Made by a program: the position numbers and the translations under genes. This document shows, piece by piece, positions 5,183 to 42,125 of a stretch of DNA of 49,570 bases (positions are counted from its first letter, which is position 1; each line of letters opens with the position of its first letter). The stretch spans positions 1 through 49,570 of the forward strand of contig JBOGFI010000037.1 of the NCBI GenBank assembly GCA_050743365.1, in the 5' to 3' direction. Origin of the DNA: Acidimicrobiia bacterium (GTDB lineage Bacteria; Actinomycetota; Acidimicrobiia; IMCC26256; JACDBD01). The notes under the pieces are model-generated. The model was given only the letters and a program-made list of their open reading frames with translations. It was not told the origin of the DNA and did no database searches.

Positions 5183-5256
5183 GCCCCCGTATCCCAACTG
5201 GCAGAGGAGAGGGTCTTAAACACCCTTCAGTGTGGGTTCGACTCCCACCGGGGGCA
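5183..5256 (+). tRNA. tRNA-like gene, class-I size, anticodon UAA (Leu codon UUA/UUG), discriminator A
   Basis: Hand fold: GCCCCCG-TA-TCCC-AACTGGCAG-AGGA-G-AGGGT-CTTAAAC-ACCCT-TCAGT-GTGGG-TTCGACT-CCCAC-CGGGGGC-A. It has a 7-bp acceptor, 5-bp anticodon stem and 5-bp T stem. U8, A14, G18G19, U33, A37, G53, T54-T55-C56, A58 and C61 are all present. No CCA is encoded. Confidence 0.55.
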
Positions 5257-32494: not shown

Positions 32495-32755
32495 TCACGA
32501 CGGTGTGACCTGCGCTGCCATGGCGTAGAGGAGCTCCCGCTCGCTCTCCTCGGCAGCCCGAAGGAGCAGCAGCGCATGGGCGTCGATGTGCTGAAGGATC
32601 GCGTCCGAAGCGAGTGAACGCAGCAGCTCTGGCGGGATCGCATCGACTTCGACAGATTCGCCCTTGAAGCGCTTCGCTCGGGCGTCGGTGCGCTTGGTCG
32701 GTGGCCACGCTTCCCCCGTTCGGCTCGGCGCGATCGGGGGAAGAAGAGGAAGCAC
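32495..32755 (-). CDS. Small hypothetical protein (86 aa), probably leaderless and LexA-controlled
   Basis: The GTG at 32755 lies 5 nt after the TAGGGT -10 element. Translation is VLPLLPPIAPSRTGEAWPPTKRTDARAKRFKGESVEVDAIPPELLRSLASDAILQHIDAHALLLLRAAEESERELLYAMAAQVTPS. 22 of 86 codons end in A/T, which is unusual here. Confidence 0.5.
   Translation of the reverse strand: MLPLLPPIAPSRTGEAWPPTKRTDARAKRFKGESVEVDAIPPELLRSLASDAILQHIDAHALLLLRAAEESERELLYAMAAQVTPS
32710..32743 (-). other. Conserved hairpin of SOS module 1
   Basis: Minus strand reads CUUCCCCCG-16 nt-CGGGGGAAG (9 bp), followed by CGUG. It shares the 12-mer GGGGGAAGCGTG with module 2 at 41670..41681. Confidence 0.5.
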
Positions 32756-32760
32756 TCGCT

Positions 32761-32789
32761 ACCCTAGCGAACGTACGTTCGGCTGTCAA
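32761..32789 (-). promoter_or_regulatory. Near-consensus promoter: TTGACA, 17-nt spacer, TAGGGT
   Basis: Minus strand reads TTGACA (32789..32784), gccgaacgtacgttcgc, TAGGGT (32766..32761). The spacing is exactly 17 nt. Confidence 0.7.
32768..32781. promoter_or_regulatory. LexA (SOS) box, perfect palindrome CGAAC-GTAC-GTTCG
   Basis: cgaacgtacgttcg is a perfect 14-bp palindrome. It matches the Gram-positive/actinobacterial GAAC-N4-GTTC consensus and lies inside the promoter spacer. Confidence 0.75.
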
Positions 32790-41159: not shown

Positions 41160-41594
41160 ATGGACGATCGCACCGGCGCCGACACGGTGCGGCGGTTCAA
41201 CGAGGAGCTGCCGTGGGGTCCGTTTCCGTCAATGATCGGGCTCGAGATGCTCGAGATCGAACGCGATGTCGTGCGCGGCCGGCTCGGCGTCACGGACCGC
41301 CTGCTGGCCGGGACCGGGTTCCTGTGGGCACCGGTGGTCGTCGGGCTCGCCGACGCGCTGTGCGCGGCGGGTACCGGCGCCAACCTGCCCGAGGGTGCGA
41401 GCTTCACCACGGTCGAGCTCAAGACAAACTTCCTCGGCTCGGCGCGGGGCGGCGAGGCGGTCGAGGGGGAGGCTCGGCCCGCGCACCTCGGCCGCACAAC
41501 CCAGGTGTGGGACGTGACGGTGACCAACACGACGTCGGGCCGGCTGATCGCGCTCCAGCGCTGCACCCAGATGATTCTCTACCCCAGGGCCTGA
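41160..41594 (+). CDS. PaaI-family (hotdog fold) thioesterase
   Basis: PFPSMIGLEMLEIERDVVRGRL...TTVELKTNFLGSARGGEAVEGEARPAHLGRTTQVWDVTV. Confidence 0.85.
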   Translation: MDDRTGADTVRRFNEELPWGPFPSMIGLEMLEIERDVVRGRLGVTDRLLAGTGFLWAPVVVGLADALCAAGTGANLPEGASFTTVELKTNFLGSARGGEAVEGEARPAHLGRTTQVWDVTVTNTTSGRLIALQRCTQMILYPRA

Positions 41595-41619
41595 CAGTCG
41601 AACACCTGTTCGATAGACG
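41591..41619 (+). promoter_or_regulatory. Promoter-like element of SOS module 2: CTGACA, 17 nt, TAGACG
   Basis: It has the same architecture as 32761..32789: a -35-like CTGACA that overlaps the thioesterase stop, a 17-nt spacer holding the LexA box, and a weaker -10-like TAGACG. Confidence 0.4.
41598..41613. promoter_or_regulatory. LexA (SOS) box, TCGAAC-ACCT-GTTCGA
   Basis: Both 6-nt arms match the mycobacterial/actinobacterial consensus TCGAAC-N4-GTTCGA exactly. It lies 4 nt after a stop codon in a convergent intergenic gap. Confidence 0.7.
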
Positions 41620-41639
41620 TGTGGCAACTTCCTATCGAG

Positions 41640-41679
41640 CGCTTCCCCGTCCTGGTCGGTCCTCCCGGAGGGGGAAGCG
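41640..41679 (+). other. Conserved hairpin of SOS module 2
   Basis: CGCUUCCCC-22 nt-GGGGAAGCG (9 bp), followed by UG. It shares CTTCC, CTTCCCC and GGGGGAAGCGTG with module 1. Confidence 0.5.
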
Positions 41680-41816
41680 TGTTCGCGCAGACGACCCGGG
41701 TCGACTCCGCCTGGGACGCTCACCCCCACACCACAAGCTCAAGACGCACTACGGCTGGAAGGTCGTCGGCACCACCACGACTGGGACCTCGCCCCACCCG
41801 ACGACCCCGATCCCCC

Positions 41817-42125
41817 CTAGACCGCGACCCCCTTCGCCCGCACCGGCTCGCCCAAGGTCAGCTCCGACTCGGCGATGAGCGGGCCGAACATCTTGGCCGC
41901 GGCGCCCATGGCCTCGCTGCCGCCGTGGGCGCCGAGCGCGGCGGTGTCGGCGTACAGCTCGTAGAACCAGAACACATCGGGATCGTCCTTCGAGCGGTTC
42001 ATCGCGTAGATCTCGGTTCCCGGCTCCTTCTCGACCGCCTGGAAGATCGAGTCGAAGGCGGCGACGAGCTCGTCGCCCTTCCCTTCCTTCGCCCGGAGCT
42101 TGGCGAGCATCGAGACCTTGGCCAT
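41817..42125 (-). CDS. Antibiotic biosynthesis monooxygenase (ABM) family protein
   Basis: About 100 aa of ferredoxin-like fold: MAKVSMLAKLRAKEGKGDELVAAFDSIFQAVEKEPGTEIYAMNRSKDDPDVFWFYELYAD. Confidence 0.85.
   Translation of the reverse strand: MAKVSMLAKLRAKEGKGDELVAAFDSIFQAVEKEPGTEIYAMNRSKDDPDVFWFYELYADTAALGAHGGSEAMGAAAKMFGPLIAESELTLGEPVRAKGVAV

What the first reader, a model, noticed from the sequence alone, without database searches (positions are those of the whole stretch)
41591..41681. Second, ORF-less SOS box module paralogous to the one at 32710..32789
A full-consensus LexA box, TCGAAC-ACCT-GTTCGA (41598..41613), lies 4 nt after the thioesterase stop, in a 222-bp gap between convergent genes. 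No gene is positioned to be regulated by it. Its layout copies the module at 32761..32789: a -35-like CTGACA, a 17-nt spacer filled by the box, then TAGACG. Downstream similarity continues as CTTCC, CTTCCCC and an identical 12-mer, GGGGGAAGCGTG. In both copies these closing sequences form a 9-bp hairpin (CGCUUCCCC/GGGGAAGCG here, CUUCCCCCG/CGGGGGAAG there). None of the three forward frames after the box gives a credible ORF. One lacks a start codon, and the other two are R/P-rich and run antisense into the ABM gene. This looks like either a damage-inducible small or antisense RNA against the ABM monooxygenase gene, or a solo remnant of the same mobile module. Two such modules in 50 kb suggests a dispersed family.
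Basis: partly seen in the sequence, partly recalled or inferred. Interest (0 to 1): 0.65.

Follow-up and report, generated by a model that had tools for sequence, protein, structure and literature searches.

The report
Decayed SOS-controlled HNH nuclease gene relic
The "ORF-less" LexA box is the surviving front end, plus two scraps of coding sequence, of a deleted copy of a multi-copy, DNA-damage-regulated DUF222/HNH endonuclease gene; it is an ordinary pseudogene relic, not a new regulatory RNA.

Summary
A perfect TCGAAC-N4-GTTCGA box sits at 41598-41613, between -35-like and -10-like hexamers. A hairpin and the 12-mer GGGGGAAGCGTG follow, and the 12-mer recurs at 32706-32717.

The whole 222-bp gap is a deletion relic of a ~1.24-kb cassette encoding a DUF222+HNH endonuclease, the REP13E12 type that LexA controls in M. 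tuberculosis. It keeps three pieces:
- the cassette head: promoter, operator, 5'UTR hairpin, SD and GTG;
- 28 nt of mid-gene sequence (RVDSAWDAH);
- the last 32 codons plus the stop, with a 1-nt deletion.

About 1 kb is missing. Eighteen distinct intact heads from metagenomes, one of them in this same MAG, share the architecture. A model built without the window copies scores M2 at 61.6 bits and M1 at 55.6 bits; the next hit scores 11.9.

M2 is mutated at two promoter positions that are invariant in all 18 intact heads. Three other species carry smaller relics at the same site, and close relatives show further deletions. So this is decay, not an exapted sRNA.

M1 is also only a head, fused to the tail of an unrelated Toprim-like gene.

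The dispersed family and the "solo remnant" reading are confirmed. The antisense or sRNA reading is unsupported. Interest is low: a new member of a known kind.

The parts
41591..41596 (+). -35 hexamer remnant CTGACA. It is TTGACA in the 18 intact heads and in the related strains. Its TGA (41592-41594) is the thioesterase stop codon.
   Evidence: TTGAC is invariant in alignment A4. All four related runs read T at 41591.
41598..41613 (+). Full-consensus actinobacterial LexA (SOS) box TCGAAC-ACCT-GTTCGA, lying in the promoter spacer.
   Evidence: The half-sites GAAC and GTTC are invariant in all 18 intact heads. The consensus TCGAAC(N4)GTTCGA is quoted from PMC3381160.
41614..41619 (+). -10 hexamer remnant TAGACG. 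The family has TAnnnT in 18 of 18 heads. The orthologous contig of the relative X5 reads TAGACT.
   Evidence: The promoter scan finds no site here because the final T is missing.
41620..41678 (+). 5'UTR of the cassette. It has an upstream ACTTCC motif (41627-41632). The hairpin CGCTTCCCC (41640-41648) / GGGGAAGCG (41671-41679) has an inner stem and encloses the Shine-Dalgarno GGAGG (41667-41671). There is a 1-nt deletion in the C run relative to related strains (after 41644).
   Evidence: Folds. Pair counts.
41679..41694 (+). Start codon GTG and the first few codons (VFAQT..) of the DUF222/HNH gene. The first deletion junction lies at about 41687-41694.
   Evidence: 41663-41687 is 100% identical to the L088 cassette. 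Intact relatives begin MFAQ/MFAL.
41695..41722 (+). Internal gene fragment (block B). It matches codons ~192-201 of the full-length gene and encodes RVDSAWDAH.
   Evidence: 90% identical over 41695-41724 to L088 cassette nt 664-693, and 9 of 9 amino acids identical. 25 of 28 nt in the spliced alignment.
41723..41820 (+). 3' terminal fragment (block C). It holds the last ~32 codons (..HHKLKTHYGWKVVGTT|HDWDLAPPDDPDPP) and the stop TAG (41818-41820). It is out of frame with block B. A 1-nt deletion at 41775/41776 shifts the frame again. The stop overlaps the ABM stop CTA (41817-41819).
   Evidence: tblastn E=1.2e-6 to L088 residues 351-382, and blastn 91.5% with one gap.. The family C-terminus ..WDL[VA]PPDDPDPP* is shown.
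32703..32789 (-). Module 1, a second cassette head with intact hexamers. It has TTGACA (32789-32784), the box CCGAACGTACGTTCGC (32782-32767), TAGGGT (32766-32761), the hairpin, GGGGGAAGCGTG (32717-32706) and the start GTG (32708-32706). No DUF222 body follows.
   Evidence: 55.6 bits with model R2, which was built without it. blastn to the heads of L093, L084 and L108.
32495..32701 (-). 3' fragment (last ~62 codons) of an unrelated Toprim-like gene (..PTKRTDARAKRFKGESVEVDAIPPELL..), joined to module 1 five nt after its GTG. It is out of frame with that GTG. It is in frame with a GTG at 32755, which gives a chimeric 86-aa ORF.
   Evidence: Homologs P0002 and P0003 are longer proteins whose C-termini match. 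DNA similarity to L115 starts at 32701. Pfam and NCBIfam give no hit.

Best explanation
The 222-bp gap between the thioesterase and ABM genes is a pseudogene relic of a compact (~1.24 kb) single-gene cassette. The cassette encodes a DUF222 + HNH endonuclease of the REP13E12 type.

Intact cassettes have this layout: TTGACA, a LexA box in the 17-nt spacer, a TAnnnT -10, a 40-70 nt leader, then a ~380-aa ORF ending ..WDLxPPDDPDPP*. In the leader, a GCUUCCCC/GGGGAAGC hairpin encloses the Shine-Dalgarno sequence just before the GTG or ATG start.

The inferred working of an intact cassette is as follows. LexA sits across the promoter spacer and blocks transcription until DNA damage removes it. The leader hairpin then further limits translation, or stabilises the 5' end, of a potentially harmful nuclease.

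The window copy has kept the head. It has lost about 560 bp and about 450 bp of coding sequence in two internal deletions. It also carries 1-nt deletions, and substitutions at the most critical base of each promoter hexamer.

Shown here: homology of each block, the deletions, the frame breaks, membership in the family, and decay at the same site in other genomes.

Inferred: LexA can probably still bind the perfect palindrome, making this an orphan operator. Transcription from the damaged promoter is weak or absent. The relic has no function of its own.
For: (1) A pattern scan of metagenomes gave 32 loci. Thirteen of them (11 distinct head sequences) share the whole head, followed by an ORF that begins MFAQ/MFAL.

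(2) The full-length products are DUF222 (PF02720, E=1.5e-13 and 1.1e-14) plus HNH (PF01844).

(3) The window blocks map colinearly onto the full-length cassettes L088 and L125. The head is 41591-41690, with 41663-41687 100% identical to L088. 41695-41722 matches codons ~192-201 (RVDSAWDAH, 9 of 9). 41723-41820 matches the last 32 codons (tblastn E=1.2e-6, blastn 91.5% with a 1-nt gap).

(4) Nine homologous proteins were chosen by protein similarity alone. Their loci give seven further distinct heads, and every one has the box, promoter and hairpin. One of these, L132, is an intact 390-aa copy on another contig of the same MAG.

(5) Model R2, built without the window copies, scores M2 at 61.6 bits and M1 at 55.6 bits. 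The next hit scores 11.9.

(6) There are clear signs of decay. TTGAC and TAnnnT are invariant in 18 of 18 intact heads, yet M2 reads CTGAC and TAGACG. The orthologous contig of relative X5 reads TTGACA and TAGACT, and one X4 contig deletes a further 176 nt (41604-41779).

(7) Other species carry differently sized relics of the same gene at the same thioesterase/ABM site: L004 (residues 40-79, E=4e-12), L009 (19 aa, E=0.003) and L005 (17 aa, E=1e-4). None has a LexA box.

(8) There is precedent in M. tuberculosis. Most 13E12-family genes there are directly LexA-controlled, and an unannotated small 13E12 ORF lies in the Rv1056-Rv1057 intergenic region, where LexA binds upstream of Rv1057 (PMC3381160).
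Against: LexA binding and transcription were not measured, and cannot be measured here. The source is an uncultured cave-metagenome MAG, and no usable RNA run exists.

The operator is still a perfect palindrome and the leader hairpin is intact. That could mean residual selection. It is equally expected if the deletions are recent.

The deletion junctions rest on short-read assemblies. Two assemblers agree, but they probably used the same reads. One contig from another sample spans the first junction (X3 record 12).
Confidence: 0.9

Rival explanations
1. Exapted regulatory element. The retained head works as an SOS-inducible promoter. Its transcript, a small RNA or a read-through antisense RNA, down-regulates the convergent ABM monooxygenase gene after DNA damage.
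For: The LexA palindrome is perfect and the leader hairpin is intact. No terminator lies between the head and the ABM gene, so any transcript would run antisense into it. M. tuberculosis has LexA sites associated with small RNAs (PMC3381160).
Against: Both promoter hexamers are mutated at positions that are invariant in 18 of 18 intact heads. The standard promoter scan finds nothing here. The head is absent at this site in L003-L010. It is partly deleted in an X4 contig and absent from a more divergent X2 contig. Everything transcribed is explained as leftover gene sequence. No Rfam family matches.
Confidence: 0.06
2. A functional small protein gene. The GTG at 41679, behind GGAGG, starts a short damage-inducible peptide, possibly through programmed frameshifting across the C runs.
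For: The SD-GTG spacing is good. The first 15 codons have high third-position GC. The three blocks would read through if the frame shifts were corrected (reading).
Against: The blocks come from non-adjacent parts of a 382-aa protein. The DUF222 core and the HNH catalytic region are missing. The literal frame from 41679 runs 159 codons antisense through the ABM gene. Two gene callers predicted nothing here. Relatives differ by indels in this stretch.
Confidence: 0.03
3. Chance resemblance. This is an isolated LexA-like palindrome next to a GC-rich hairpin, with no common ancestry with module 1.
For: The pairwise M1-M2 local alignment is only modestly above shuffles (9 of 2000), and the 12-mer carries it. 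The 12-mer statistic alone is weak.
Against: The family-level scores are 61.6 and 55.6 bits, from a model that excludes both copies. Three blocks match a full-length gene colinearly.
Confidence: 0.01

Closest known systems
REP13E12 (13E12 repeat) family of Mycobacterium tuberculosis: DUF222 + HNH endonuclease genes such as Rv0336, Rv0515, Rv1702c, Rv2100 and Rv1588c
   Same: The domain make-up is the same, DUF222 (PF02720) with a C-terminal HNH. Both families are multi-copy and dispersed. Both have a LexA box of the TCGAAC-N4-GTTCGA type in the promoter. The M. tuberculosis family is described as mostly under direct LexA control, and a small unannotated 13E12 ORF lies in an intergenic region where LexA binds (PMC3381160).
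   Different: The host here is an uncultured member of Acidimicrobiia, not Mycobacterium. Sequence relatedness to the mycobacterial genes themselves was not measured. The conserved leader hairpin that encloses the SD, and the flush placement against neighbouring stop codons, were seen here. I did not find them described for 13E12 in the papers I read. The window copy is a relic, not a gene.
Orphan or decoy LexA operators: LexA binding without apparent regulation
   Same: A consensus operator with no intact gene downstream. ChIP-seq in M. tuberculosis found LexA sites with no damage-induced gene (PMC3381160).
   Different: Here the origin of the orphan site is clear: gene decay. Binding has not been measured.
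SOS-induced type I toxin loci with structured leaders (E. coli tisB/istR, dinQ/agrB; from general knowledge)
   Same: A LexA-repressed promoter combined with a leader structure that occludes the ribosome-binding site of a harmful product.
   Different: The product here is a ~380-aa nuclease, not a small hydrophobic peptide. No antisense RNA partner was found. There is no sequence relationship.

Membership tests
DUF222/HNH endonuclease (REP13E12-type) gene cassette | Sequence homology to DUF222-HNH genes | tested here: met
   Three colinear blocks match the full-length cassettes L088 and L125. The full-length relatives hit PF02720 and PF01844.
DUF222/HNH endonuclease (REP13E12-type) gene cassette | Intact ORF with the DUF222 core and the HNH catalytic motif, i.e. 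a functional member | tested here: not met
   About 1 kb of ~1.15 kb of coding sequence is missing. Only codons ~1-5, ~192-201 and the last 32 remain, in shifted frames. It is therefore filed as a relic, not as a gene.
DUF222/HNH endonuclease (REP13E12-type) gene cassette | Multi-copy and dispersed within a genome | tested here: met
   There is an intact copy on contig 80 of the same MAG (L132), plus two heads in this window. The isolate-like run X5 has several copies of both the head and the tail.
LexA (SOS) regulon promoter of Actinomycetota | Palindrome TCGAAC-N4-GTTCGA overlapping the core promoter | tested here: met
   16 of 16 match at 41598-41613, inside the 17-nt spacer. The half-sites are invariant in 18 intact heads.
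LexA (SOS) regulon promoter of Actinomycetota | LexA binding and damage-inducible transcription | not testable with these tools
   The source is an uncultured MAG and no RNA run is usable.
LexA (SOS) regulon promoter of Actinomycetota | Functional -35 and -10 hexamers | tested here: not met
   M2 reads CTGACA and TAGACG. It is mutated at the T of TTGAC and at the final T of TAnnnT, both invariant in 18 of 18 intact heads. The scan finds no promoter here. M1 keeps TTGACA and TAGGGT.
Small or antisense regulatory RNA | Own terminator or a defined 3' end | tested here: not met
   No intrinsic terminator lies in 41400-42000.
Small or antisense regulatory RNA | Conservation of the element at this locus beyond what gene ancestry explains | tested here: not met
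   The head is absent from L003-L010. Related strains carry variable deletions.
Small or antisense regulatory RNA | Match to a described RNA family | tested here: not met
   Rfam at gathering threshold gives only a tRNA elsewhere in the window. A permissive search of 41400-42000 gives only chance-level hits.
Conserved cis-regulatory leader hairpin (candidate, undescribed) | Base pairing kept across the family, with compensatory changes | tested here: inconclusive
   On the MAFFT alignment, 90.7% of cells pair, against 45-73% for slid partners. Only 3 pairs carry double changes, and 43 of 500 shuffles reach the observed count of double-change cells. The model-fitted alignment gives 94% paired, 9 double-change cells and 0 of 500 shuffles, but it is biased towards the structure. 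Eleven of the 20 sequences were found with a pattern that fixed the 3' arm.
Type I toxin-antitoxin (SOS-induced) | Short hydrophobic toxin ORF with an antisense RNA | tested here: not met
   The frames after the GTG are hydrophilic gene fragments.

The most novel reading that the evidence does not exclude
Orphan cassette heads such as M2, and the better-preserved M1, may be more than debris. After the nuclease gene is lost they could persist as LexA-controlled promoters. They would then put neighbouring sequence under SOS control. For M2 that would be an antisense transcript into the ABM gene. For M1 it would be a chimeric 86-aa ORF carrying the tail of a Toprim-like protein. DUF222/HNH cassettes would in that case be a source of regulatory rewiring. 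A linked point is that the leader hairpin with its CUUCC anti-SD motifs would be an undescribed cis-regulatory RNA motif.
Probability: 0.08. Interest if true: 0.5.

Novelty: new member of a known kind. Interest (0 to 1): 0.22.

Why it matters
The result mainly serves annotation. An apparently gene-less consensus SOS box should not be scored as a new LexA target or sRNA promoter without first checking for decayed DUF222/HNH (13E12-type) cassettes.

It also shows that LexA control of this nuclease family, known from M. tuberculosis, extends to Acidimicrobiia with a very uniform promoter-operator-leader design.

It supplies a covariance model and 18 intact heads for anyone who wants to test whether the SD-enclosing hairpin is a real translational control element.

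The relic itself is very probably functionless.

Tried and rejected
- **Rfam.** The whole window at gathering threshold and a permissive search of 41400-42000 found nothing relevant.
- **Pfam and NCBIfam on the 86-aa ORF of module 1.** No hit.
- **Recent, lineage-specific insertion.** I first thought M2 was one, because eight related species lack any GAAC-N4-GTTC within 3 kb of the thioesterase. I rejected this when the short gaps in L005 and L009 and the long gap in L004 turned out to hold smaller relics of the same gene. The insertion is old and decay was independent in each lineage.
- **Small ORF with a frameshift.** The apparent coding signal comes from non-adjacent fragments of a 382-aa protein.
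- **Pairwise M1-M2 alignment as proof of paralogy.** It is too weak alone, so I replaced it with a family model that excludes both copies.
- **Hairpin covariation.** The unbiased alignment gives only weak support. Part of the sample was ascertained with the 3' arm fixed, so the question stays open.
- **RNA evidence.** Only one doubtful 'RNA?' soil run and one isolate run share 18% of words with the region. Neither is usable.
- **E. coli-style promoter scanner.** It also misses the intact M1 promoter (TAGGGT matches only 3 of 6 positions of TATAAT). Its negative result at M2 counts only together with the family invariants.

Full report
**Observation.** The window is a high-GC actinobacterial contig from a cave-metagenome MAG (GCA_975305365.1). 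Its nearest neighbours are Acidimicrobiia MAGs.
- The thioesterase (4HBT) ends with TGA at 41592-41594.
- CTGACA is at 41591-41596.
- The 16/16 LexA palindrome TCGAACACCTGTTCGA is at 41598-41613, filling a 17-nt spacer.
- TAGACG is at 41614-41619.
- The CTTCC and CTTCCCC motifs follow.
- The hairpin is CGCTTCCCC/GGGGAAGCG.
- GGGGGAAGCGTG is at 41670-41681.
- The convergent ABM gene begins 222 bp after the thioesterase stop.

The 12-mer recurs at 32717-32706 on the minus strand. The window's only two GAAC-N4-GTTC sites are these two modules. Rfam finds nothing here.

**First clue from related strains.** I laid contigs from four related public runs on 41450-41950.
- The stretch 41588-41690 is conserved.
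- All four runs read T at 41591, which gives TTGACA.
- Both X3 and both X5 contigs read T at 41619, which gives TAGACT. One of the X5 contigs is continuous with the thioesterase.
- Downstream of about 41690 the contigs diverge. From the GTG at 41679 they still read VFAQT[TS]RAV...
- The last ~45 nt of the gap match several different contigs per run.

This pointed to a multi-copy protein gene rather than an RNA.

**Finding the family.** I scanned JGI metagenome contigs for GAAC-N4-GTTCG, a gap of 40-68 nt, then GGGGGAAGCGTG. The scan returned 32 loci. Thirteen of them, with 11 distinct head sequences, share the full layout. That layout is TTGACA, the box, a TAnnnT -10, a leader with GCTTCCCC...GGGGGAAGC, then GTG TTC GCG opening a long ORF.

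Complete examples are 382 aa (L088) and 408 aa (L084). L088 ends ..HHHHLKTYFGWKVVGTTHDWDLVPPDDPDPP*. Both hit Pfam DUF222 (PF02720, E=1.5e-13 and 1.1e-14) and HNH (PF01844). This is the domain make-up of the REP13E12 family of M. tuberculosis.

**Anatomy of the relic.** tblastn and blastn against L088, and a spliced alignment against L088 and L125, divide the gap into three colinear blocks.
- Block A, 41591 to about 41690, is the promoter, operator, leader, start codon and first few codons. 41663-41687 is 100% identical to L088.
- Block B, 41695-41722, matches codons ~192-201 (RVDSAWDAH, 9 of 9 identical; the DNA is 90% identical over 41695-41724).
- Block C, 41723-41820, matches the last 32 codons and the stop (tblastn E=1.2e-6; DNA 91.5% identical).

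Block C is out of frame with block B. It also carries a 1-nt deletion at 41775/41776, where ACCAC-CACGAC stands against ACCACGCATGAC. That deletion is why the tail reads ..GWKVVGTTTTG.. in one frame and HDWDLAPPDDPDPP* in another.

About 560 bp and about 450 bp are missing. The DUF222 core and the HNH catalytic region are gone. The relic fills the gap exactly. The TGA of its -35 hexamer is the thioesterase stop codon. Its own stop TAG (41818-41820) overlaps the ABM stop CTA (41817-41819).

**Is the head really a family feature?** The pattern scan fixed part of the sequence, so I took an unbiased sample. A protein search with L088 found 858 relatives at E<=1e-20. Most are ~383 aa and labelled DUF222, several from Acidimicrobiia.

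I looked up nine of these proteins, chosen only by protein similarity and contig length. Their loci give seven further distinct heads, because two of the proteins sit at one shared locus. Every one carries TTGAC, the LexA box, TAnnnT, the CUUCC leader hairpin and the start codon. One of them (P0024, L132, 390 aa, intact) lies on another contig of the same MAG as the window.

In the alignment of the 18 distinct intact heads, TTGAC, GAAC, GTTCG and the T-A...T of the -10 are invariant. A covariance model built from these 18, without the window copies, scores M2 at 61.6 bits (E about 1e-15) and M1 at 55.6 bits (E about 7e-14). The next window hit scores 11.9 bits. The direct M1-M2 alignment alone would not have been convincing, since 9 of 2000 shuffles reach its score.

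**Decay, not exaptation.**
- M2 differs from all 18 intact heads at the first T of the -35 and at the last T of the -10. These are the two positions where a promoter is most easily killed. The promoter scan finds nothing there.
- The orthologous contig of relative X5 still has both Ts. One X4 contig deletes a further 176 nt (41604-41779). One more divergent X2 contig has only 27 unrelated nt between the two genes.
- Eight related species keep the thioesterase/ABM synteny, with gaps from a few to ~800 bp and no LexA box.
- Three of these species hold smaller relics of the same gene at the same place. L004 has residues 40-79 (E=4e-12). L009 has a 19-aa tail (E=0.003). L005 has a 17-aa tail (E=1e-4).

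So the cassette entered this site long ago and has been eroded independently. There is no terminator before the ABM gene, so a residual transcript would be antisense to it. Nothing suggests that this is selected. No RNA data exist for this uncultured organism.

**The leader hairpin.** In every head, the predicted minimum-free-energy fold pairs GCUUCCCC with GGGGAAGC around a short inner stem. The GGAGG/GAGG Shine-Dalgarno lies in the 3' side of the fold, directly before the start codon.

On the MAFFT alignment, 90.7% of cells pair, against 45-73% when partners are slid. Only three pairs show double changes, which does not clearly exceed shuffles. One is C-G to U-A in the outer stem of L123 and L133. 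Another is G-C to C-G in the inner stem between the short-leader and long-leader subfamilies.

A model-fitted alignment looks stronger (94% paired, 9 double-change cells, 0 of 500 shuffles), but it leans towards the structure. I regard the hairpin as a real, conserved feature of the cassette leader. Its role is inferred, not shown. It most plausibly restrains translation or protects the 5' end of an SOS-induced nuclease mRNA.

**Module 1.** M1 is also only a head, and it has intact hexamers (TTGACA, TAGGGT). Five nt after its GTG (32708-32706), the sequence becomes the last ~62 codons of an unrelated gene. Longer homologs of that gene (P0002, P0003) carry a YYFGDYDPSG Toprim-like motif. DNA similarity to L115 begins at 32701. 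The 86-aa ORF (32495-32755) is a chimera of translated leader and this tail. It is in frame with a GTG 6 nt after the -10, but not with the cassette's own start.

**Comparison with what is known.** In M. tuberculosis the LexA consensus is TCGAAC(N4)GTTCGA. [quoted passage not shown] A small unannotated 13E12-family ORF lies in the Rv1056-Rv1057 intergenic region, where LexA binds upstream of Rv1057 (PMC3381160). 13E12 genes are also recombination substrates (PMC13157036).

The present case has the same kind of gene, the same regulation and the same kind of remnant, in a different class of Actinomycetota.

**Verdict.** The 'solo remnant of a dispersed family' reading is confirmed and made specific. 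The sRNA or antisense reading is not supported. This is a new member of a known kind, and interest is low.

Noticed in passing
window 32495-32789 (minus strand): Module 1 is not an intact gene. Its cassette head has intact TTGACA and TAGGGT hexamers. It is fused 5 nt after the start codon to the last ~62 codons of a Toprim-like gene, whose homologs carry YYFGDYDPSG. This creates a chimeric 86-aa ORF that could still be SOS-expressed.
   Followed up: partly
window 41591-41596; L117 2425-2430; L124 9930-9935: In three independent loci, the TGA inside the cassette's -35 hexamer TTGACA serves as the stop codon of the upstream co-oriented gene. A relic-free site (L006) has a thioesterase of the same length with its own TGA. 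The cassette therefore seems to begin exactly at the neighbour's stop codon.
   Followed up: partly
window 41817-41820; L124 11122-11125; L126 4215-4218; L133 1636-1639: The DUF222 stop codon overlaps the stop codon of the convergent downstream gene in a 4-nt CTAG/CTAA arrangement at four loci. The cassettes sit flush against both neighbours. This hints at precise, possibly site-directed insertion, or at strong compaction.
   Followed up: no
window 41627-41648 and the long-leader heads (L088, L089, L123, L125, L126, L131, L132, L133): Long-leader heads carry a second pyrimidine motif, ACUUCC(C)UCGA, upstream of the hairpin's GCUUCCCC arm. This second anti-SD-like sequence could form an alternative pairing with the SD region.
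   Followed up: no
L003 3430-4060; L004 3433-4224; L008: The thioesterase/ABM gap is a variable spot. L003 holds a pyridoxamine-5'-phosphate-oxidase-like ORF. L004 holds a ~790-bp decayed DUF222 fragment. L006 has only 6 nt between the stops.
   Followed up: partly
L125 4960-5000: The leader of this intact cassette has a tandem duplication of ATTCCCGGAGGGG, which doubles the SD-containing arm of the hairpin.
   Followed up: no
L087, L098, L107, L113 (metagenome loci): Several other family copies have premature stops or frameshifts shortly after an intact head, giving ORFs of 36-238 aa. Decay of the gene body with retention of the head seems common in this family.
   Followed up: no
window 5183-5256: A tRNA gene is the only Rfam match in the window at gathering threshold. 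It is unrelated to the finding.
   Followed up: no
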